Origin: a virus
Lineage: Duplodnaviria > Heunggongvirae > Uroviricota > Caudoviricetes
Strand: one strand, 5' to 3'
Length of the DNA stretch: 41,474 nucleotides
Virus record (IMG/VR): IMGVR_UViG_2563366877_000003
Coordinates: 1-41,474 of that record
In this document: piece after piece, positions 3,255-36,792 of the stretch
Position numbering within the stretch: position 1 is the stretch's first letter
Layout: every line of letters begins with the position of its first letter
Made by a program: the position numbers and the translations under genes
The notes under the pieces: model-generated
The model's input: only the letters and a program-made list of their open reading frames with translations
What the model was told of the DNA's origin: nothing
Database searches by the model: none

Positions 3255-5028
3255 ATTACTACTTTTTATCTCGTTTATTATTCTAGTGGCTATGAATTGC
3301 TACATTGGATATGGTTACACCCCGAGTTCTGATCAGGCTTCTGGTGTAATCATTTCACACGACATAGCAAATGGAAACATTCTACTTTCAGGATGGTTTC
3401 TTTCAACCGTAACTTTCTATTTTACAGACCTTATTTGGTATGCATTGCTGGATATAATAGGTATCAGTAATAAAGTTCAATCATATTTAGTTCCGTCAAT
3501 CCTTATTTCTGCTCTGACAATATGCTGCATAATACTTTCATATCACAAAAAGAAGTTGCCATGGGCAATATTCTTCTCATTTGGAATTCTAGGAGCTTAT
3601 TCATCAAATATATTTAACCTTGCCGTATCACATATTGGGGCTTATTTATATACAGCAATTATTTATATTATAATAGAAAGAACAACTGTATACAAAGCTA
3701 ACATACATCATTATCTCATTGTTTTTCTCTTAAGCCTAGCCATATTTTTTAGCGACGACATAAGCAAATACGCATTTTTGATACCTTTAATTTCATCATT
3801 GGCAATTGAATTATTTTACAAACGAAATAAAGTTCACCTGCACTATGCGGCATCTATATTTCTTGCCTTTATTTTATCGAAAACACTCTTATACTACGTG
3901 CAAGAAATTGGCGGATTTCAATTGCCAGGAATAGGTTATCCTAAGTTTGCCACACAAGAAGAATTTATTAATAACTTATATTTCTTATGTGTTGGTTTAT
4001 TACGTCTTTTCGAAGCATATTTTTTTGGAATGGATATTGGGCTACAGTCTTTTTCATCAATAATTAGACTGTGCTTTCTATTGTTCTTTGTTTACATCAT
4101 TGCTTCTAATGCAAGAAAAATAACAAGATTCTCAACCATTGATAGAGCTTTGCTTCTTACGGCGATTATAATGCCGTGCGCATTCTTATTTAGTAATATT
4201 CCATCAGCGGTTGAATCAATAAGATATATTGCTCCATCTGTAATTTTCGGGGCTGTATTCATCTGTAGAAATGTAAATATAAGCCAAAAAACATCTTTAT
4301 TCCTGCTTTCCTTGTCTTTTGTTAGCGGTGCCATAATTTATGGTAACGCCATTTCATTAGATAAAAAAAACCATGAAATTAATGATATTTCAAAATATAT
4401 AAAGGAGCATAATCTTAAAGCAGGTTTTGCTTCATTCTGGTTTGCGTCGTCAGTTTCATTAAATAGTGGTTCAGAGATATCGCCAGTAGTATTTAATAGC
4501 CATGAAGGAAGTGTAAAACCATTTTTATGGTTAGCTAAAATAAATAATTATGAGCAAAACAATTCATTTATTATAGCTGATAGTAAAGAAGACATGGACG
4601 CTGCAATAATGCAATATGGAAGACCTGATGTAATTGATAAAGTCATGTCAAAGTTTATCTTAGTATGGAATGACGGGATAAATATACCATTTACCGGTTT
4701 TCACACGTTAACCAATTCAAAATACTTTGGTTCTCTAGGTTATAGTGATGAATTTCAAGTATGCAAAAAAGACGGTGCTACATTCTTGGTAACAGGACCA
4801 TACAAACCTCTCAAGAAAGGTATGTATAAAATGCATATTGAAAAAAGTGGTAGAGGTGATGTATTAGGTGATATTGTAGCGTTTGGTGGTAAAAAATTAA
4901 TTGCTAAAATCAATAATGTAGTTGACATGGATTTCTACATTGATAAAACCTATCCTGATGTCGAGGTGAGAATATATAACTCAGACACAAGTTCATGTAT
5001 TAGCTCAATTTCAATAGAGATGAAATAA
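3238..5028 (+). CDS. GtrC-type serotype-specific O-antigen glucosyltransferase, polytopic membrane protein
   Basis: 596-aa ORF overlapping gtrB end, many hydrophobic segments, strongly AT-rich compared with flanks; third position of a gtr operon. Confidence 0.6.
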
Positions 5029-5170: not shown

Positions 5171-6961
5171 TCAGTTATCATTAAGGCCTACATTTGCCAT
5201 GGCTGTATAAACTGTCCTTCCAGACCCTGTCTGCCCTACCACTCCGGGTACACCTACGAAAGTGTTGCCAGTTATTACCCATGCAAGGTTATCGTTGGTG
5301 TTAAAGTTTATCCCTCCAGTGCATGTATTCCATCCGCCAGTGACTTTCTGGTTACCGAAGAAATTACCATTCACAGTAACATTACGACAATATTCTGCTT
5401 TTATTGCATAACCGTTGCAACTACTGAATTGGTTATTACCCATTAATAGATTCTGCACGTCATAGAGGTACATGCATTCCTGACCGGCGAAATGGATAAC
5501 ATTGGCGTTAAAGCTAAGTCCCAAAACCTCTGTTGCACGTATTGCTGGAGTCCCTGACACTCTGCCTCCAGAAAACAGGCTGTTTGTGATAGTTCCTACC
5601 GCCACTCTGTTAAGGTCCAAGCAATAACCGTCAATATTGTCAATTACGCTATTAGTTATAAATACCGGTAATCCCCGAGAATCCGCCCCTGAATCTAAAG
5701 GTCGGTGTGTCGTTGACTTTATGCCGTAAGGTCCGTAAAACATCGAAGTGCCTACTAGTCTCAAATCGGCAACATCAGTTATATCTATAGGGGATCTGAC
5801 CATATAGCAGTCGATAAATGCTGGACCCTCGTTAATAGGAAATGCTGGTGATACACTGGCCTCGTTAATTGTGGTCATACTGTCGATTAATACGCAGCCA
5901 TTCCAAGTAACCCAGTGTAAATCTGATGCGTAAATCGGTGCCTTGTAAAAACCGCACTTATCAAATTTAAATAGACTCGCATGTTGCAGTGATATAGCCG
6001 CATTGCTGGGGGTAGAGCTGGAGTCATTACTAAAATGAATGCGCTCGAACACTGTATTTTCAGCCCAAGAAGATGCACTCCCGGTGTTGGCGAAGAACAC
6101 CGTGGCGTCCGCATTTATATTTTTGTTTCGCCAGAATGTTTTAGCGCCACCGCTGCCGATGAAATGCATAGACGGCTTGATGACGCATGGAGGTGTAAAG
6201 TAGTAGCTTCCGTACTGAAACTCTATCGATCGACCTTCATATAACTGTGCGTTAGCCAGGATAGGAGAATGATCTAAACTCTGATCTTCAGATTTGCCAC
6301 CGAACCATTCAATTATAACATGACTACCTGCGCCACTTCGTACCCAATATACAGATGGGGAAGCAGACGAAATAAATACTCCATCATCATCTGTGTAATT
6401 CCCTGATACAGCTACGAAAACACCACCACCTAACAAACCACGTCCTGTGGTGTGCTCCTTCACCATGGCCTTATCACCTACAGATGGTGCTACATCCCGT
6501 AAATTTGATATTTCGGCATATTCACCTATGAGATTCAGCCCATCTTCACTACCCAGGTTATCATAACTAACGGCACCATTAACTAAGTTTACGCCGCCCT
6601 GTGAAGACAAATCCTGTCGTAACTGATCAGGGTCATACTTCAGCACATTAGGAAAATAGAACTGCTGCGCACCGTACGTATCATAAACAGCCATCGAATG
6701 ACCTTGCACAGTTACGAACTTGGCAATCTGTCCGTTATATACAGGGTAACCAGCAGAGTTAATAATGATTGGTTGCGAAACAGGAATGTGAGAGCCGTCT
6801 TCGTTCTCTACATAAACCTGAATCTGGTTTTCAGGATTTACAGGGTCAGTGTCAATTTTACCGATATAAATCTTTCCATTAGCTACGGCTTTAAAAGAAC
6901 GAGCCATAGTGAAGAGTTGCGAAGGCATGCTGACCACAACATTTGCGGTGATATCTGACAT
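5171..6961 (-). CDS. Tailspike protein, P22 gp9-type N-terminal head-binding domain with divergent receptor-binding domain
   Basis: N-terminus [10 protein letters not shown]...[12 protein letters not shown]...DTDPVNP...VTVQGHSMA...NVLKYDPDQ matches P22 tailspike head-binding domain; remainder differs. Start set at internal ATG 6961 rather than the ORF-track start 7009. Confidence 0.85.
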
Positions 6962-7082
6962 TTCATTGCTCCAGACGAATGATATGATGCAACCATGATG
7001 TGATTGCATACCGAAATGGTACTATTGAGTATTTATCCAGTAGGTTACGATGCCATTCCACCCAACTGGTGAGGCATCAAGG

Positions 7083-7343
7083 ATGTACAGCAAATACGAC
7101 GAGGCGCAGTTTCACTTGAGACTTCCGCATGAACTCCACGCGAAAATTAAGCAGCGTGCGAAGATGAATAACAGGTCGCTGAACTCAGAGATAATTGCAG
7201 CGATTGAGGAATCATTGGATAAACAAAGCTCTGCATCAGTTTACATTGACGATGCAGAGCGTATGGCAGAACAACAATCTGATATGGTTAAGAAAATTGT
7301 CTTTGATACGCTCAAGAAGCTATATAAAAAAGACAGCAGATAA
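7083..7343 (+). CDS. mnt: Mnt-like ribbon-helix-helix repressor
   Basis: C-terminal half (RSLNSEI...DAERMAEQQSDMVKKIVFDTLKKLYKK) matches P22 Mnt; start set at internal ATG 7083 with AAGG upstream. Confidence 0.7.
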   Translation: MYSKYDEAQFHLRLPHELHAKIKQRAKMNNRSLNSEIIAAIEESLDKQSSASVYIDDAERMAEQQSDMVKKIVFDTLKKLYKKDSR

Positions 7344-7432
7344 CCATCCGTTACGGAGGATTTATGCACAGAGATATGCTGAATATTGCGTTCTACATAT
7401 TTGGTTTTTGCACGTTCCTGGTGTTTGCAAAG

Positions 7433-9430
7433 CTATTCTGACAACGCATCAGACTTAGCCCCCTGCGTCAGGGCGTTAATTGCCTTTTTTGCCTGCTGCA
7501 AGGCTTTCTCAAACGCTGTTGATCCGCGTTGGGTGTTTGCCATTCGGAGCATTGCATTTCTGAATGGCTCGCTCTCATAGGCGCGAGTAAGAAGTCCGTA
7601 GCTTACCGCTGCGCCAGTTGTCGCCGGGTTCATTGCCGTCCCATACCCGATAATGAACGGGATAGTTTGCTGCCCTGTAGGTGTTGTTACTGCCGCTTTT
7701 GCAGCCTGCTGCGTGGATTGCAGGTAGTTTTTTAATCCTTTCAGGTAAGCAGCGTCCTGCCCCTTAAATGTGATGCCAGTCTGGTTTTGCAGGATGTTAA
7801 GCTGCCGAAGGAACTGGTCAGGGGATCCGCCAGATTTCTCCATCGCCTTTCCAATGATGCCATTGCGCATTTGCGCCCTGCCAACACGACCAACTGAGTT
7901 ATACAGCGTCTTAATTTCAGATTTGTTCTTGCTGAATAGCATGTTGTTGACAACTTCCGGCGTCAGGTCGCCTTTCATGAGAACATTCTTCAGCCTGGTA
8001 TTCTTTAGTTTCGCCGCTTCGTCAGCGTAGACGGCATTGGCCTGCTGATATTTACGGAGAGTATCATTGCCAAGATTCTGACCAATGGCACCATTTATAT
8101 CGTCGGTCATCGCCTTGTAAACGCGCTGTATGGCGGCATCAGAACGGTTTGGTAACACTGGTCGCTCACCCTTCACGTCCATTCTGAACTGGCTGCGCAG
8201 ATCGCTTAATTGCTTCAAATCCAGATTTACCGGGCCATCAGGACCAGCATTGCGAACAAGCTCATCACGATATGACTGAAGTTTTGAAATCGTCTCGTTA
8301 TCAGCAACCTTACCAAGCTTCTGCAGGTTAGATATCTCAGTATCAATCTGCTGAATTGCGCGTGCAGGCTGAATGTTTACTCCTGCCATAGCATTCTGAA
8401 CCTGCTCCAGTCGATTACCGGCGGCACGACGAATTCCTGATGTTTTCGCTTTGAGGCTGTCAATAACAACCGCTGGATCATACTCACCGAATTTATCGGC
8501 AAATCTCTGCACCAACTGGCTTCTCGCTTCCTGTTGCGTTGCTCTCATTCCGCTTGTGCCAGCCAGAGGGATATTTTCCGCTGTCGTCTGCGCCATTTTC
8601 CCGACGCGGGAAGTCGGTTGTAACAGGTCTGTGGTGTGCAGAGGCACGCCTTCACGCTCTGCAAACCTGATAGCCTGTTGCGCTTCGGGTGCGATAGCAC
8701 CACGAACGCCACGATAAGCAGCACCTAATCCACGTCCGGCAGCGTTAATAGCACCGCCAGTAAGTACACCAACGCCTAAATCGGTGGCGAGTGCTTCCGC
8801 ATCATCTTTCGCACTATTTGCAGCAAGTGACCCGACTGCGTTTTCAGCGAGAAGGCGAGTTGCACCCTGAGCGATTCTACCAGCGAGTGTTGGTGCCTGT
8901 GTTGCCGCTCTCTCAATGCCAGCAGGAGTGAGGTAAGGCAATGCCTCAGCAAATACCCTGCCCTCTGTAGTTTGTGGAGTCAGCGCGCCTTGCTGAAGGC
9001 CAAAGTCCCGCTCTAATCCCTGCGTTGTTACTCGTGGCGCTGGTTGATATGTCCCATCGCCAATGCCGAGTTTACCGCCAGCCCAAGCCGCCGCGCTTGT
9101 TACAGCATCGGCAACTGATGCAGGTATGTTTGCCACGTTCACGCCAGCCTGCACCAGTCCGCGACCAGTCTCTTTTACTGCTTCACCAAGATCAGACATA
9201 AATCCGCTTTGCTGTGGTTGTTGCTGTGCTACTGGTTGCTGTGTCTCCACTGGCTGCACAGATGGCAATGGATAGGCTGCATAGAAAGCTTGCTTAGCCT
9301 GCTCTGCATTTTCTCCGGCTTGCGGGGCCACGACTTCATTGAAGTATTGCTCCTGAGCCTGCGCTTTTTGTTCTGGTGCTAACGCCTGATACTGTGGAGA
9401 GGCGATAACATCTTTCCATGCTTTAGCCAT
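7433..9430 (-). CDS. Ejection (injection) protein, P22 gp16-like
   Basis: 665 aa, last gene of the 7-20-16 ejection-protein order downstream of gp20. Confidence 0.75.
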   Translation of the reverse strand: MAKAWKDVIASPQYQALAPEQKAQAQEQYFNEVVAPQAGENAEQAKQAFYAAYPLPSVQPVETQQPVAQQQPQQSGFMSDLGEAVKETGRGLVQAGVNVANIPASVADAVTSAAAWAGGKLGIGDGTYQPAPRVTTQGLERDFGLQQGALTPQTTEGRVFAEALPYLTPAGIERAATQAPTLAGRIAQGATRLLAENAVGSLAANSAKDDAEALATDLGVGVLTGGAINAAGRGLGAAYRGVRGAIAPEAQQAIRFAEREGVPLHTTDLLQPTSRVGKMAQTTAENIPLAGTSGMRATQQEARSQLVQRFADKFGEYDPAVVIDSLKAKTSGIRRAAGNRLEQVQNAMAGVNIQPARAIQQIDTEISNLQKLGKVADNETISKLQSYRDELVRNAGPDGPVNLDLKQLSDLRSQFRMDVKGERPVLPNRSDAAIQRVYKAMTDDINGAIGQNLGNDTLRKYQQANAVYADEAAKLKNTRLKNVLMKGDLTPEVVNNMLFSKNKSEIKTLYNSVGRVGRAQMRNGIIGKAMEKSGGSPDQFLRQLNILQNQTGITFKGQDAAYLKGLKNYLQSTQQAAKAAVTTPTGQQTIPFIIGYGTAMNPATTGAAVSYGLLTRAYESEPFRNAMLRMANTQRGSTAFEKALQQAKKAINALTQGAKSDALSE

Positions 9431-33642: not shown

Positions 33643-33873
33643 TTAAGCGGCCATTAATTCAGGCCAGATGCTTTCCCAATCAACCGGATGAAGGTCTTTG
33701 CGAGTCACTTCACCATTGCTGAACTTCTCAATCAGAACACAAAGTGCTGCGCCCAATTCATGATTACGGCTAAGTGCTTTCCTCAAATAGCCGATAGAAG
33801 TTCCGCACTTGGTGGCAAATTCTCTCTGCTCTTCCAGTGAAAGGGAGTTCAGATACAAGCGGAGTTCTTCCAT
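33643..33873 (-). CDS. cro: Cro-like HTH regulator
   Basis: 76-aa ORF divergent from cI across the operator region, HTH-like segment FATKCGTSIGYLRKALS; assignment mainly positional. Confidence 0.55.
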   Translation of the reverse strand: MEELRLYLNSLSLEEQREFATKCGTSIGYLRKALSRNHELGAALCVLIEKFSNGEVTRKDLHPVDWESIWPELMAA

Positions 33874-33907: not shown

Positions 33908-33963
33908 TTTACCTGTAGGTAAAAAGCAAATCAATACCCATAGGTTATTTACCGGCAGGTAAT
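33908..33963. promoter_or_regulatory. Right operator region (OR) between divergent cro and cI
   Basis: Palindromes TTTACCTGTAGGTAAA (33908..33923) and TTTACCGGCAGGTAAT (33948..33963), with a weaker site between. Confidence 0.6.
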
Positions 33964-33981
33964 CAAAGATAGAATTAAATC

Positions 33982-34668
33982 ATGGATAAATACGAACAAA
34001 GACGACTAAGGCTGATAGAGATAAGAGACCGATTCTGTAATGGAAAGGCCTCAGAGTTGGCTCGTCGAATAGAAAGGGAACCATCATACGTTTCCAGAAT
34101 GCTGTATCCGGAAGGAAAAAGCGGAAAAAAACGCATTGCTGACGATATGATGGAACTAATTGAAAAATCTTTTAATCTCCCACGCGGATGGATGGACATG
34201 CTTGCAGATGGTAAAGCTGGAGCTACAGACCATCTTGAGTTTGCGGGTAACGTTCGTGCGGGTTTTGTTCCGGTAATTGGTGAAGCCGTTTTGGGAGTTG
34301 ATGGCTCAGTGGATATGATTGAATTCAGATCCGGTTGGTTAAGCATCTACAGCGGCGATAAAGATGCTTACGGTCTGAAGGTTAAGGGTGACAGCATGTG
34401 GCCAAGGATTCAGTCAGGAGAATATGTTGTTATTGAACCAAATACGCCAGTACATCCAGGTGATGAAGTCTTTGTAAGGACCAAAGACGGTCACAACATG
34501 ATAAAGATCATGAACAAAACAAGAGACGGTGATTATCAGTTTAGTAGCATAAACAGTGATCACCGCCCAATCACTCTTCCTGTTGAAGAAGTTGATAAAA
34601 TGCATTTTGTTTCAGCTATTGTGAAACACACCAGGTACGTAGACCAGGACGATCTGCCAAAAGTTTGA
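33982..34668 (+). CDS. cI: CI-type prophage repressor (HTH plus S24 LexA-like autopeptidase domain)
   Basis: 228 aa; C-terminal S24 domain with GDSMWP serine and downstream lysine; N-terminal HTH; divergent from cro. Confidence 0.9.
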   Translation: MDKYEQRRLRLIEIRDRFCNGKASELARRIEREPSYVSRMLYPEGKSGKKRIADDMMELIEKSFNLPRGWMDMLADGKAGATDHLEFAGNVRAGFVPVIGEAVLGVDGSVDMIEFRSGWLSIYSGDKDAYGLKVKGDSMWPRIQSGEYVVIEPNTPVHPGDEVFVRTKDGHNMIKIMNKTRDGDYQFSSINSDHRPITLPVEEVDKMHFVSAIVKHTRYVDQDDLPKV

Positions 34669-34979
34669 GGATAAAGCAGCAAGTGTTTATACCCGGCATA
34701 GTAGTCGCTGTTGTAATCATCTGCTTCATATGGGCAAAGTTATCTCCTGTAAGCTCTAAGCATACAGCTGAACTCATGAAGAAGAAGCATCTTATACATG
34801 AGGCAGAATCGATAATTAAAAAGTTCAAAGGCATGTCATACGACGACATGTCATCAGAGCAGATTGCTATGTATAAATGCGCCATTGAGCGTCTTGACTA
34901 CTTAAACGGACTCAAACCCAAACACACCCCAGTAGAATCAAAATTGCCGCAATGGCCAAGCAATCCAAATAGCTTCTGA
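34665..34979 (+). CDS. Small single-pass membrane protein apparently co-transcribed with cI (rex/sie position)
   Basis: 104-codon ORF beginning with TTG overlapping the cI stop (TTGA), or GTG at 34683; hydrophobic segment FIPGIVVAVVIICFIWA then charged domain; followed by a terminator. Confidence 0.4.
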   Translation: MRIKQQVFIPGIVVAVVIICFIWAKLSPVSSKHTAELMKKKHLIHEAESIIKKFKGMSYDDMSSEQIAMYKCAIERLDYLNGLKPKHTPVESKLPQWPSNPNSF

Positions 34980-34990
34980 CATCTCCTTTC

Positions 34991-35013
34991 AGCCCGCAAA
35001 GCGGGCTTTTTTA
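34991..35013 (+). terminator. Intrinsic terminator ending the cI transcript
   Basis: AGCCCGC-AAA-GCGGGCT followed by TTTTTTAT. Confidence 0.65.
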
Positions 35014-35032: not shown

Positions 35033-35115
35033 TTACCTGAAAATTCAAGCAGGTAAACTCTTACATCAATTTTATTTACCTACAGGTATAGACAGCTGTT
35101 TTACCTGTAGGTATA
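35033..35115. promoter_or_regulatory. Left operator region (OL)
   Basis: TTTACCTACAGGTATA (35075..35090) and TTTACCTGTAGGTATA (35100..35115), plus TTACCTG-N10-CAGGTAA (35033..35056); same half-site as OR. Confidence 0.6.
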
Positions 35116-35125
35116 TTTTAGGCCA
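35089..35125 (+). promoter_or_regulatory. Early leftward promoter pL
   Basis: TAGACA (35089..35094), 17-bp spacer, TATATT (35112..35117); sequence from about 35125 (ATCAGCAGGACGCACTGACC) matches the lambda pL transcript start. Confidence 0.6.
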
Positions 35126-35157: not shown

Positions 35158-35188
35158 TGCTCTTAAAAATTAAGCCCTGAAGAAGGGC
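35158..35188 (+). promoter_or_regulatory. nutL site (boxA and boxB)
   Basis: boxA TGCTCTTAA (35158..35166) and boxB hairpin GCCCTGAAGAAGGGC (35174..35188), as in lambda nutL. Confidence 0.8.
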
Positions 35189-35345: not shown

Positions 35346-35672
35346 ATGGATGCACAAACACGCCGCCGCGAACGTCGCGCAGAGAAACAGGCTCAATGGA
35401 AAGCAGCAAATCCCCTGTTGGTTGGGGTAAGCGCAAAACCAGTTAACCGCCCTATTCTCTCGCTGAATCGCAAACCGAAATCACGAGTAGAAAGCGCACT
35501 GAATCCGATAGACCTTACAGTGCTGGCTGAATACCACGAACAGATTGAAAGCAACCTGCAACGTATTGAGCGCAAGAATCAGCGCACATGGTACAGCAAG
35601 CCACGCAGTGAAATGGGTGTGACTTGTGTTGGTCGCCAGAAAATGAAATTAGGCAGCAAGCCACTTATTTGA
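35346..35672 (+). CDS. N: Antiterminator N
   Basis: From internal ATG 35346: MDAQTRRRERRAEKQAQWKAANPLLVGVSAKPVNRPILSLNRKPKSRVESALNPIDLTVLAEYH..., matches lambda N; the ORF-track start is a GTG extension. Confidence 0.9.
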   Translation: MDAQTRRRERRAEKQAQWKAANPLLVGVSAKPVNRPILSLNRKPKSRVESALNPIDLTVLAEYHEQIESNLQRIERKNQRTWYSKPRSEMGVTCVGRQKMKLGSKPLI

Positions 35673-35683
35673 GAGGAATTAAT

Positions 35684-36307
35684 ATGTCATCAATCCGCTT
35701 AACTACGAGAATGAAAGAGGAAATCGCTCGTAACGCTTTAATTAAGTCTGGGGTTTTCACTGAACTTGAAGAAGTAACAAAGTTAAAGAACCAGCTTGCA
35801 CTTGACGCCAGAGTTATTGCGTTTGGCGGTAAAAAGAAAACTGAGGAAGTGGATCAGTTATCATCTAAGTTTGTAGCTATAAGTGAAGAACTTGAAAAGA
35901 TGGGATGTTCATTTTACTCATACGATTTTCGTTCTACTTCAATTTATCTGACTGTATCTGGCAGAAGGGTTGGATGGCATTCATATGGGAAAGACGGCAA
36001 CGGCGAAGATATATTTCTCCCTACTCCAACCAAAGATAAATGCATGTTTGACGCAGAACACGAAATAACAAAAAGGTTTGATGAAATCTGCGCATTGCAA
36101 CAAAAACTTGAAGCCAAGAAAAAGGATATCGAATCAAATGTATGGGCTGCTTTAAACTCAGTCACAACAGTTAAGCGACTCATTGAAGTTTGGCCTGAAA
36201 GCAAAGAATTGCTACCAAAAGAAGCAGATAAAGCAAGTACAGCACTTCCTGCTTTACGGGTAGAGGATTTGAATAAGATGATTGGACTTCCTTCCGAGGC
36301 CGCATAG
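35684..36307 (+). CDS. Hypothetical early-left protein immediately downstream of N
   Basis: 207 aa from ATG 35684 with GAGAGGA upstream; soluble, Lys/Glu-rich; no recognised motif. Confidence 0.5.
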   Translation: MSSIRLTTRMKEEIARNALIKSGVFTELEEVTKLKNQLALDARVIAFGGKKKTEEVDQLSSKFVAISEELEKMGCSFYSYDFRSTSIYLTVSGRRVGWHSYGKDGNGEDIFLPTPTKDKCMFDAEHEITKRFDEICALQQKLEAKKKDIESNVWAALNSVTTVKRLIEVWPESKELLPKEADKASTALPALRVEDLNKMIGLPSEAA

Positions 36308-36468: not shown

Positions 36469-36480
36469 GACGGAGGATAT

Positions 36481-36792
36481 ATGAAATTACGTGTCTGGCA
36501 TATCCCGCAAGTACCTATGAAGCCGTTCATTGTAGAAGTGGCAAGTGTTGAAGAGGGTGTTCGCCTGATGGACGCACTGGCTGATTATGATGCCTTTCAG
36601 TATGACAACAACATCAAGCCTGACTACTGCAATGCTAACGGCCTTGAGATGTGGGATGAGAGCCTTACTGATGAAGATTTATCAGAGATGGGGCTTACGG
36701 ATCGCTGGGTAGATTGGTACAGCGAATGCCAATGTTACGACGACCCACGTAAATATCTCGAAAGCCTGAAAGAAGAAACATCAGCCGCCTAA
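36481..36792 (+). CDS. Small acidic hypothetical protein
   Basis: 103 aa from ATG 36481 (MKLRVWHIPQVPMKPF...), GGAGG upstream; rich in Asp/Glu. Confidence 0.5.
   Translation: MKLRVWHIPQVPMKPFIVEVASVEEGVRLMDALADYDAFQYDNNIKPDYCNANGLEMWDESLTDEDLSEMGLTDRWVDWYSECQCYDDPRKYLESLKEETSAA

What the first reader, a model, noticed from the sequence alone, without database searches (positions are those of the whole stretch)
34665..34979. Small membrane protein apparently co-transcribed with the cI repressor: candidate superinfection-exclusion or abortive-infection gene
A 104-codon ORF starts by overlapping the cI stop (TTGA) and ends just before a strong terminator and OL. This is the position held by rexAB in lambda, where lysogen-expressed protection genes sit. 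It encodes one hydrophobic helix followed by a charged domain, and I do not recognise the sequence. The start codon is non-canonical (TTG, or GTG at 34683), so it may not be a real gene.
Basis: inference. Interest (0 to 1): 0.6.

Follow-up and report, generated by a model that had tools for sequence, protein, structure and literature searches.

The report
Small membrane gene behind prophage repressor
A real, conserved 98-codon gene for a small membrane-anchored protein of unknown function sits just after the repressor gene of this P22-like prophage; its relatives occupy the slot where phage P22 keeps its exclusion gene sieA, so it is a good but untested candidate for a new prophage protection gene.

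Summary
The ORF is real. Its true start is 34683 (GTG here, ATG in 22 of 25 related haplotypes), giving 98 aa (34683-34979), not the TTG at 34665. It lies between the cI stop (34668) and a terminator (34991-35007). The OR and OL operators flank the cI-ORF pair, so it occupies the slot of lambda rexAB and BTP1 bstA.

It is intact in 35/35 copies and under purifying selection (omega 0.25-0.34). It evolves about 18 times faster at the protein level than the adjacent cI.

It belongs to PHROG 10450 (function unknown). Pfam, NCBIfam, PADLOC, PDB sequence and fold searches find nothing.

The family has two contexts:
- directly after this cI type, in a P22-like prophage (the window), in the long-tailed phage mEp043, and in diverged metagenomic modules;
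- in the gene 16-tailspike region of P22-like phages, abutting gene 16 where P22 has sieA, in three loci downstream of an Mnt/Arc-type gene.

It is not homologous to SieA.

The prediction is one N-terminal membrane helix and a cytoplasmic helical hairpin of about 80 aa.

My best reading, which is inference, is a lysogen-expressed inner-membrane protection protein that most likely blocks phage DNA entry. Abortive infection or a function unrelated to defence remain open. It is a moderately interesting experimental candidate.

The parts
33643..33873 (-). cro-like gene (76 aa) of the immunity module, divergent from cI
   Evidence: ORF. Annotated Cro or transcriptional repressor in mEp043. 88-92% identical in the diverged modules L044 and L045.
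33910..33961 (.). OR operator palindromes TACCTGTAGGTA (33910-33921) and TACCGGCAGGTA (33950-33961)
   Evidence: 4 matches of TACCNNNNGGTA in the window against 0.15 expected, all at OR or OL.
33948..33975 (+). PRM-like promoter (TTTACC-16-TAGAAT), ending 6 nt before the cI ATG
   Evidence: This is a consensus match only. The role is inferred from its position overlapping OR.
33982..34668 (+). cI-type repressor gene (228 aa, Peptidase_S24 C-terminal domain)
   Evidence: PF00717, E 1.4e-17; phrog_4. The cI-ORF junction is 99.6% identical to mEp043, where the upstream gene is annotated cI / prophage repressor.
34668..34672 (+). GAGGA, candidate ribosome-binding site, 10 nt before the GTG start
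   Evidence: Sequence. The equivalent GAGGA in L045 lies 9 nt before its GTG, inside the end of cI. Function is inferred.
34683..34979 (+). ORF98, the gene in question: 98 aa, GTG start, TGA stop at 34977-34979; member of PHROG 10450
34683..34739 (+). Codons 1-19: the single N-terminal transmembrane helix (MFIPGIVVAVVIICFIWAK)
   Evidence: Kyte-Doolittle 2.84, no K or R before it and a K/R-rich stretch after it, a pattern seen in all 11 family members tested; helical in both models.
34740..34976 (+). Codons 20-98: predicted cytoplasmic helical hairpin plus a tail, carrying the near-invariant residues H27, K34, I38, E40, A41, M56, Q60, C66, A67, R70, L71, L74, K78, W91, P92
   Evidence: The topology rests on the positive-inside rule and is inference.
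34991..35013 (+). Intrinsic terminator-like hairpin (7 bp stem, 6 GC pairs) plus T-run; counterpart of lambda tImm
   Evidence: A similar hairpin plus T-run follows the ORF in L044.
35077..35117 (+). OL operators (35077-35088, 35102-35113) overlapping a PL-like promoter TAGACA-17-TATATT (35089-35117)
35346..35672 (+). Lambda-type N antiterminator gene, preceded by a nutL boxB-like hairpin GCCCTGAAGAAGGGC at 35174-35188
   Evidence: PF11438 N36, E 1.5e-26. The hairpin is seen. That it equals lambda boxB is from my own knowledge.
7009..7433 (.). The window's gene 16-tailspike gap, which is the P22 sieA / 'ant moron' slot. It holds only an Mnt/Arc-type gene (7050-7343, +), with no sieA and no second copy of the family
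   Evidence: Gene 16 (7433-9430, -) is 33% identical to P22 gp16 (E 6e-77) and gp20 is 69% identical. The tailspike (5171-7009, -) has a P22 Head_binding domain.

Best explanation
ORF98 (34683-34979) is a genuine gene of the prophage's immunity module. It is transcribed with cI from PRM (and from PRE during establishment), read through to the terminator at 34991-35007, and translated from GTG 34683. Translation may be helped by ribosomes terminating at the cI stop 15 nt upstream.

The product is a 98-aa protein anchored in the inner membrane by a single N-terminal helix. An approximately 80-residue helical hairpin and a short tail carrying a conserved W-P are predicted to lie on the cytoplasmic face.

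Its most likely role is to protect the lysogen from superinfecting phages at the inner membrane. Most probably it interferes with the last step of DNA delivery, at the cytoplasmic side of the entry channel or of a host inner-membrane protein the channel uses. That would make it a functional counterpart of P22 SieA, although unrelated in sequence.

Shown here: the gene is real, selected, linked to cI, and has relatives in the sieA slot.

Inferred: expression in the lysogen, membrane location and topology, and all of the protective function and its mechanism.
For: Real gene:
- ATG/GTG polymorphism exactly at the start.
- Intact in 35/35 copies, pN/pS 0.25; the other five frames are broken or have pN/pS of at least 0.28 with stops.
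- In unsaturated comparisons omega is 0.26-0.34.
- Homologues of 30-42% identity share 19 near-invariant positions.

Operon with cI:
- The gap to the cI stop is 14, 3 and 4 nt in three modules whose synonymous sites are saturated, so the linkage is old.
- A further module, L074, shows the same cro-cI-ORF order.
- There is no terminator before the ORF and one after it.
- OR and OL flank the pair.

The slot is a known home of lysogen-expressed defences: lambda rexAB and BTP1 bstA. The cI-N gap is described as a hotspot and the cI promoter as highly active in lysogens (PMC8585504).

Second context:
- In six P22-like loci (L035, L037, L038, L041/phage N7, L042, L043) the homologue lies between gene 16 and the tailspike.
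- In five of them it abuts gene 16 convergently; in L043 a called 72-aa ORF intervenes.
- In three (L037, L041, L042) it lies downstream of an Mnt/Arc-type gene on the same strand.
- This is where P22 has sieA. [quoted passage not shown]
- No SieA-type gene (phrog_7745) was found among the neighbouring genes tested.

Fast evolution next to slowly evolving neighbours: the ORF is 70% identical where cI is 98% and Cro 99% (dN 0.16 against 0.009). This is typical of accessory or defence genes.

Topology: one hydrophobic helix, 0 K/R before it and K/R-rich after it, in all 11 members tested.

Independence of virion type: the module occurs in long-tailed mEp043 as well as in this short-tailed P22-like prophage. 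That fits a cargo gene rather than a virion or replication function.
Against: - There is no functional evidence of any kind.
- There is no hit in PADLOC, although P22 SieA itself has none there either.
- No literature on the family was found.
- Position is only suggestive. The same slots also hold genes that are not defences, for example orf59a and hkcC of unknown function.
- If the soluble domain is cytoplasmic, it cannot meet the periplasmic part of an injection conduit.
- The Shine-Dalgarno spacing (10-11 nt) and the GTG start in this particular copy suggest modest translation.
- PGAP leaves the gene unannotated in most RefSeq E. coli genomes.
- Omega of about 0.3 shows constraint, not positive selection, so an arms race is not demonstrated.
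Confidence: 0.4

Rival explanations
1. Abortive infection. ORF98 is a membrane-anchored sensor or effector that is harmless in the lysogen. When an infecting phage triggers it, it collapses membrane potential or otherwise kills the cell. This works like RexB, SieB or the staphylococcal membrane-anchored PdpSau.
For: It sits in the same slot as rexAB and bstA, both abortive-infection systems (PMC8585504). Membrane-anchored prophage Abi proteins exist (PMC10127798, listed). A cytoplasmic domain could sense a phage product.
Against: A single helix with no partner gene is a poor channel former, whereas RexB has four helices and needs RexA (my knowledge). There is no second conserved gene in either context. 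Nothing in the sequence resembles a nuclease, a protease or a pore.
Confidence: 0.2
2. Lysogenic-conversion or host-physiology factor unrelated to phage defence. A small membrane protein would bind and modulate a host inner-membrane protein such as a transporter, protease or signalling protein, improving lysogen fitness.
For: Small prophage proteins that act on host inner-membrane proteins are known, for example DicB acting on ManYZ (PMC6832061, listed). The family occurs in about 2% of complete E. coli genomes from many hosts (52 and 57 of 5426). Its conserved cytoplasmic face suits a conserved host partner.
Against: A conserved host target would predict slow evolution, but the protein changes about 18 times faster than cI. 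Both contexts are phage slots known for exclusion genes. DicB itself ends up conferring phage resistance, so this rival partly merges with the main explanation.
Confidence: 0.2
3. Regulator of the prophage's own lysogeny circuit. A membrane-tethered protein would modulate maintenance or induction, for example by acting on FtsH, on repressor cleavage, or on the Mnt/Ant circuit. That would explain why it follows a maintenance repressor gene in several of its contexts.
For: It lies directly downstream of cI in the window type and in four diverged lineages (L044, L045, L074, L075). It lies downstream of an Mnt/Arc-type gene in L037, L041 and L042.
Against: In L043 and L035 it has no repressor gene directly upstream. 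P22 and lambda manage without it. The partner repressors, cI and Mnt, are unrelated proteins. The module works in phages of different architecture.
Confidence: 0.1
4. Not a functional gene: a chance or decaying ORF in the spacer between cI and the terminator.
For: Non-ATG start and a sub-optimal ribosome-binding site in this copy. PGAP usually does not call it.
Against: ATG start in 22 of 25 haplotypes, intact in 35/35 copies, a third-position excess and omega 0.25-0.34. Conserved homologues down to about 30% identity occur in two genomic contexts.
Confidence: 0.03

Closest known systems
P22 SieA (superinfection exclusion A; phrog_7745; types A-C of Leavitt et al. 2024, PMC10883804)
   Same: Both are prophage-borne small inner-membrane proteins (predicted for ORF98). 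The second branch of the ORF98 family occupies the very slot of sieA, between gene 16 and gene 9 of P22-like phages and next to gene 16. SieA's best-conserved motif is also predicted to be cytoplasmic.
   Different: No sequence relationship: hhalign probability 0.3% and a different PHROG. ORF98 is 98 aa with 1 helix, against 162-200 aa with 3-4 helices. It lacks FxRYPxEAxxFNK. The window copy sits after cI, not in the sieA slot. No exclusion has been shown.
Lambda RexA/RexB
   Same: Same position and same orientation between cI and the terminator before OL/PL, presumably on the PRM transcript.
   Different: Rex is a two-protein system, with a cytoplasmic RexA and a four-helix RexB (my knowledge; PMC8585504). 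Here there is one 98-aa single-helix protein, with no Pfam or PHROG relation.
BstA of the P22-like prophage BTP1 (Owen et al. 2021, PMC8585504)
   Same: A defence gene directly downstream of cI in a P22-like prophage, sharing its promoter and followed by its own terminator.
   Different: [quoted passage not shown] No similarity to ORF98 was found: a Pfam scan with E up to 1 gave only chance hits.
Lactococcal Sie2009-type and streptococcal Ltp-type exclusion proteins
   Same: Small membrane-associated proteins encoded in the lysogeny module beside the repressor and expressed from the prophage, which block DNA injection (my knowledge; Ltp paper PMC3952083 listed).
   Different: They come from Gram-positive phages and have a different topology (an extracellular domain, or a lipoprotein). 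ORF98 has no conserved lipobox. Homology was not tested here.
PHROG 10450 / mEp043 gp49 / phage N7 ORF14
   Same: ORF98 is a member (E 1.4e-54) and is 99.6% identical in DNA to mEp043 gp49. N7 ORF14 is the sieA-slot branch.
   Different: None. However, the family carries no functional annotation at all.

Membership tests
PHROG 10450 (unknown function) | Significant full-length match to the family profile | tested here: met
   E 1.4e-54, residues 7-104 of the 104-aa translation against profile positions 1-98 of 98. N7 ORF14 also matches (E 3.2e-52).
SieA (P22 superinfection exclusion A) | Sequence homology to SieA types A, B or C | tested here: not met
   hhalign of the family profile against P22 SieA gives probability 0.3%. 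In one search SieA falls in phrog_7745 and ORF98 in phrog_10450. Only type A was compared directly.
SieA (P22 superinfection exclusion A) | 162-200 aa with three or four transmembrane helices and the motif FxRYPxEAxxFNK | tested here: not met
   ORF98 is 98 aa with one hydrophobic segment; the next best window has Kyte-Doolittle 0.38. The motif is absent in all 13 members. SieA features are taken from PMC10883804.
SieA (P22 superinfection exclusion A) | Located between genes 16 and 9 of a P22-like prophage | tested here: not met
   The window copy follows cI, and the window's 16-9 gap holds only mnt. The other branch of the family does meet this feature.
SieA (P22 superinfection exclusion A) | Blocks DNA injection by P22-like phages; escape mutations in gp16/gp20 | not testable with these tools
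   Needs infection, K+ efflux and DNA-entry assays.
RexAB | Two genes, rexA (cytoplasmic sensor) and rexB (four-helix membrane protein), after cI | tested here: not met
   There is only one ORF between cI and the terminator, with one helix. The position criterion alone is met.
BstA | Homology to the BstA protein family, downstream of cI | tested here: not met
   A Pfam scan with E up to 1 gives only three chance-level hits. The size is 98 aa. Only the position matches. No direct alignment with a BstA sequence was made.
T4 Imm / Sp and other Pfam-defined exclusion proteins | Match to a curated family model | tested here: not met
   Nothing above threshold in Pfam, NCBIfam or PADLOC.
Lipoprotein exclusion factors (Cor, Llp, Ltp type) | Signal peptide with a conserved lipobox cysteine | tested here: not met
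   there is no lipobox in 12 of 13 members, and the one match is not conserved. No K or R precedes the hydrophobic helix.
Prophage 'moron' expressed in the lysogen (general kind) | Variable cargo gene in a transcription unit that is active in the prophage and bounded by a terminator | tested here: inconclusive
   The architecture fits, and the slot is a known hotspot. Expression itself could not be tested.

The most novel reading that the evidence does not exclude
PHROG 10450 is a previously unrecognised, sequence-novel class of superinfection-exclusion protein. It would act from the cytoplasmic face of the inner membrane to stop phage genome entry. It is interchangeable with SieA in P22-like phages, and it travels with a cI/Cro immunity module, so repressor immunity and injection block would be inherited as one unit across phages with different virions.
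Probability: 0.25. Interest if true: 0.65.

Novelty: new variant of a known kind. Interest (0 to 1): 0.5.

Why it matters
Prophage genes co-expressed with the repressor are a productive source of new anti-phage mechanisms; rexAB, bstA and sieA are examples. This family is uncharacterised and absent from the defence-system catalogue searched (PADLOC). It is usually not even annotated in RefSeq E. coli genomes, yet the two branches sampled here are each present in about 1% of complete E. coli genomes.

Its occurrence in both the rexAB slot and the sieA slot gives a sharp, cheap hypothesis to test: does it exclude P22-like or other phages, and at which step? A positive result would add a minimal, 98-aa, single-helix tool for studying how short-tailed phages get DNA across the inner membrane. 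It would also show that immunity modules carry their own exclusion gene. A negative result would still define a conserved lysogen-expressed membrane protein needing another explanation.

Tried and rejected
- TTG 34665 as the start: rejected.
- Antisense ORF 34616-34885 as the real gene: rejected. It shares third codon positions with ORF98 and carries a TGA in 10 of 35 copies.
- Homology to any known family: Pfam, NCBIfam and PADLOC gave nothing. A PDB sequence profile search gave only E 0.17 hits to designed helical filaments.
- Homology to P22 SieA: rejected.
- Lipoprotein or cleavable signal peptide: rejected.
- An RNA element in the region: Rfam found nothing above gathering score.
- Promoter scans for an own promoter in the sieA-slot relatives were uninformative.
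- Positive selection: not supported. Deep comparisons are saturated at synonymous sites, and unsaturated ones give omega of about 0.3.
- Literature on mEp043 gp49 or the family: none found.

Full report
**What is there**

The window is a P22-like prophage.
- It encodes homologues of the P22 ejection proteins. gp16 (7433-9430, minus strand) is 33% identical to P22 gp16 (E 6e-77), and gp20 is 69% identical.
- It has a tailspike with the P22 head-binding domain, a GtrB-like glycosyltransferase, a lambda-type N and a gp17 homologue.
- Its immunity region runs in the lambda order on the plus strand: a PRM-like promoter at 33948-33975, cI at 33982-34668 (S24 peptidase domain), the ORF in question, a terminator-like hairpin at 34991-35007, the OL/PL region at 35077-35117, a boxB-like hairpin, and N at 35346-35672.
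- The operator palindrome TACCNNNNGGTA occurs four times in 41 kb against 0.15 expected: twice at OR and twice at OL. The cI-ORF pair is therefore bracketed by the two operator regions, and the ORF occupies the place of lambda rexAB.

**Is it a gene, and where does it start?**

The mechanical ORF runs from TTG 34665, but the gene starts at 34683.
- Across 35 copies (25 haplotypes) from phage mEp043, E. coli chromosomes and IMG/VR contigs, position 34683 is A in 22 haplotypes (ATG) and G in 3, including the window (GTG).
- Every full-length homologue begins at the aligned M-[YFW]-I-[PS]. The start codon is ATG or GTG, and the distant homologues have strong AGGAG/GGAGG sites 5-7 nt upstream.
- The 98-position PHROG 10450 profile aligns to residues 7-104 of the long translation.
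- In L044 the sequence printed shows an in-frame TAA two codons upstream.

Evidence that the frame is under selection:
- Within the near-identical clade the ORF is open in 35/35 copies.
- 12 of 20 variable sites are third positions, and there are 10 synonymous and 10 mostly conservative non-synonymous changes, giving pN/pS 0.25.
- The two other sense frames and two of the antisense frames are closed in all copies. The long antisense ORF (34616-34885) shares third positions with ORF98 and is interrupted by TGA in 10 of 35 copies, so it is a shadow ORF.

**Relatives**

The immediate module (cI plus ORF) is 99.6% identical to phage mEp043. It occurs in 52 of 5426 complete E. coli genomes, and RefSeq annotates a gene there in only 2 of the 40 genomes listed.

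An exhaustive HMMER search of 1.84 billion representative proteins found only ten hits. Seven are true homologues of 33-43% identity (one of them a 55-aa fragment), two are hits to proteins of about 1300 aa that I regard as spurious, and one is the near-identical cluster representative. A profile search added about a dozen more homologues. None has a name or a Pfam domain. Pfam, NCBIfam, PADLOC and a PDB sequence profile search gave nothing. Fold searches with two models returned only generic helical hairpins.

**Two genomic contexts**

*Branch A* lies directly after the same kind of cI. It comprises the window and mEp043 type plus the metagenomic modules L044, L045, L074, L075 and L082. The gap between the cI stop and the ORF start is 14 nt in the window, 3 nt in L044 and 4 nt in L045. 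mEp043 has lambda-like long-tail genes, whereas the window is short-tailed. The module therefore moves between phages of different virion type.

*Branch B* (phage N7 ORF14, P0011, P0016, P0022-P0024) lies in P22-like phages between gene 16 and the tailspike.
- In five of the six loci it abuts gene 16 convergently. In L043 a called 72-aa ORF intervenes.
- In L037, L041 and L042 it lies downstream of an Mnt/Arc-type gene on the same strand.
- A seventh member, P0009, sits beside a degraded remnant of such a prophage.
- This is the slot of sieA in P22, a region the epsilon34 genome paper calls the 'ant moron' (PMC2629481).
- None of the neighbouring genes tested is a SieA-type protein.
- The N7 type is present in 57 of 5426 E. 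coli genomes.
- The window's own 16-9 gap holds only an Mnt-type gene.

**Not SieA**

A profile of the family against P22 SieA gives a probability of 0.3%. SieA proteins are 162-200 aa with three or four helices and a motif FxRYPxEAxxFNK (PMC10883804). ORF98 family members are 97-114 aa with one helix and no such motif.

**Evolutionary behaviour**

Between the three deep lineages of branch A, synonymous sites are saturated. cI stays 83-87% identical and Cro 88-92%, while the ORF is only 40-48% identical. The linkage is therefore old.

In the unsaturated pair L045/L074:

| Gene | Amino-acid identity | dN | dS | omega |
|---|---|---|---|---|
| cI | 98% | 0.009 | 0.37 | 0.02 |
| ORF | 70% | 0.16 | 0.60 | 0.27 |

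The protein is constrained, but it changes roughly 18 times faster than its neighbour. Nineteen positions stay near-invariant across both branches: M1, I3, H27, K34, I38, E40, A41, V44, W53, M56, Q60, C66, A67, R70, L71, L74, K78, W91 and P92. There is no evidence for omega above 1.

**Protein anatomy**

Residues 1-19 form the only hydrophobic segment. In all 11 members tested no K or R precedes it, and the following 15 residues are K/R-rich. By the positive-inside rule this predicts N-out/C-in, with the rest in the cytoplasm. That is inference.

AlphaFold gives a long helix continuing from the membrane helix to about residue 47, a second helix at 58-76, and an extended tail carrying the W-P (pLDDT 75.7 with a 12-sequence alignment). 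There is no conserved lipobox and no signal-peptide n-region.

**Interpretation**

Both contexts are slots known to hold prophage-expressed accessory genes: the cI-N gap with rexAB and bstA (PMC8585504), and the gene 16-tailspike region with sieA. In several loci the family gene directly follows a maintenance-repressor gene (cI or Mnt).

Put together with membrane anchoring, cargo-like mobility and rapid sequence change, the most economical reading is a lysogen-expressed protection protein acting at the inner membrane. I favour a block of DNA entry, a SieA-like job done by an unrelated and much smaller protein. The reasons are that branch B takes the sieA slot in prophages whose tested neighbouring genes include no sieA, and that SieA's own best-conserved motif is cytoplasmic.

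I put this at about 0.4. The rivals are abortive infection (about 0.2), a host-physiology factor (about 0.2) and a role in the prophage's own lysogeny control (about 0.1). None of these can be separated by sequence analysis. The experiments are listed under next steps.

**Verdict**

The functional guess is strengthened circumstantially but remains unproven.

This is an uncharacterised family in a well-known kind of locus. It is a worthwhile, inexpensive experimental target rather than a surprise.

Noticed in passing
window 7009-7433 (ORF 7050-7343, +): The gene 16-tailspike 'ant moron' of this P22-like prophage holds only an Mnt/Arc-type ribbon-helix-helix gene (Pfam Repressor_Mnt and Arc). 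It has no ant, arc or sieA, so the Mnt repressor has no obvious target gene beside it.
   Followed up: partly
window 35684-36307 and 36478-36792: Directly after N lie an Nmad5-family gene ('nucleotide modification associated domain 5', E 3e-72) and a homologue of P22 gp17 (PF17420). These are further accessory genes in the early-left operon.
   Followed up: no
window 34683: The start codon is polymorphic: GTG in the window and two other haplotypes, ATG in 22 haplotypes. Several distant homologues also use GTG (L037, L038, L042, L045, L074).
   Followed up: yes
E. coli RefSeq genomes (one search hits H4-H43): PGAP annotates no gene over ORF98 in 38 of the 40 genomes listed, although the ORF is intact in every copy examined. 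This is a systematic annotation gap for the family's cI-linked branch. The N7-type branch is annotated.
   Followed up: partly
window 34616-34885 (-): An 89-codon antisense ORF overlaps the end of cI and most of ORF98. It shares third codon positions with ORF98 and is broken by a stop in 10 of 35 copies, so it is a shadow ORF.
   Followed up: yes
L036 4449-5747: Family member P0009 lies beside a truncated remnant of P22-like ejection genes and next to a T6SS Hcp plus Tlde1-domain pair. This looks like a decayed prophage retaining the small membrane gene.
   Followed up: no
L037 2554-2886: The 110-aa gene just upstream of family member P0023 matches phrog_6324 and, weakly, holin and hemolysin PHROGs. 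It is another small membrane protein in the same Mnt-side operon.
   Followed up: no
L074 vs L082 (ORF at 3501-3794 in each): Two near-identical modules differ by 3 non-synonymous and 0 synonymous changes in the ORF, but by 0 non-synonymous and 3 synonymous changes in cI. The counts are too few to test, but the direction fits diversifying change in the ORF.
   Followed up: partly
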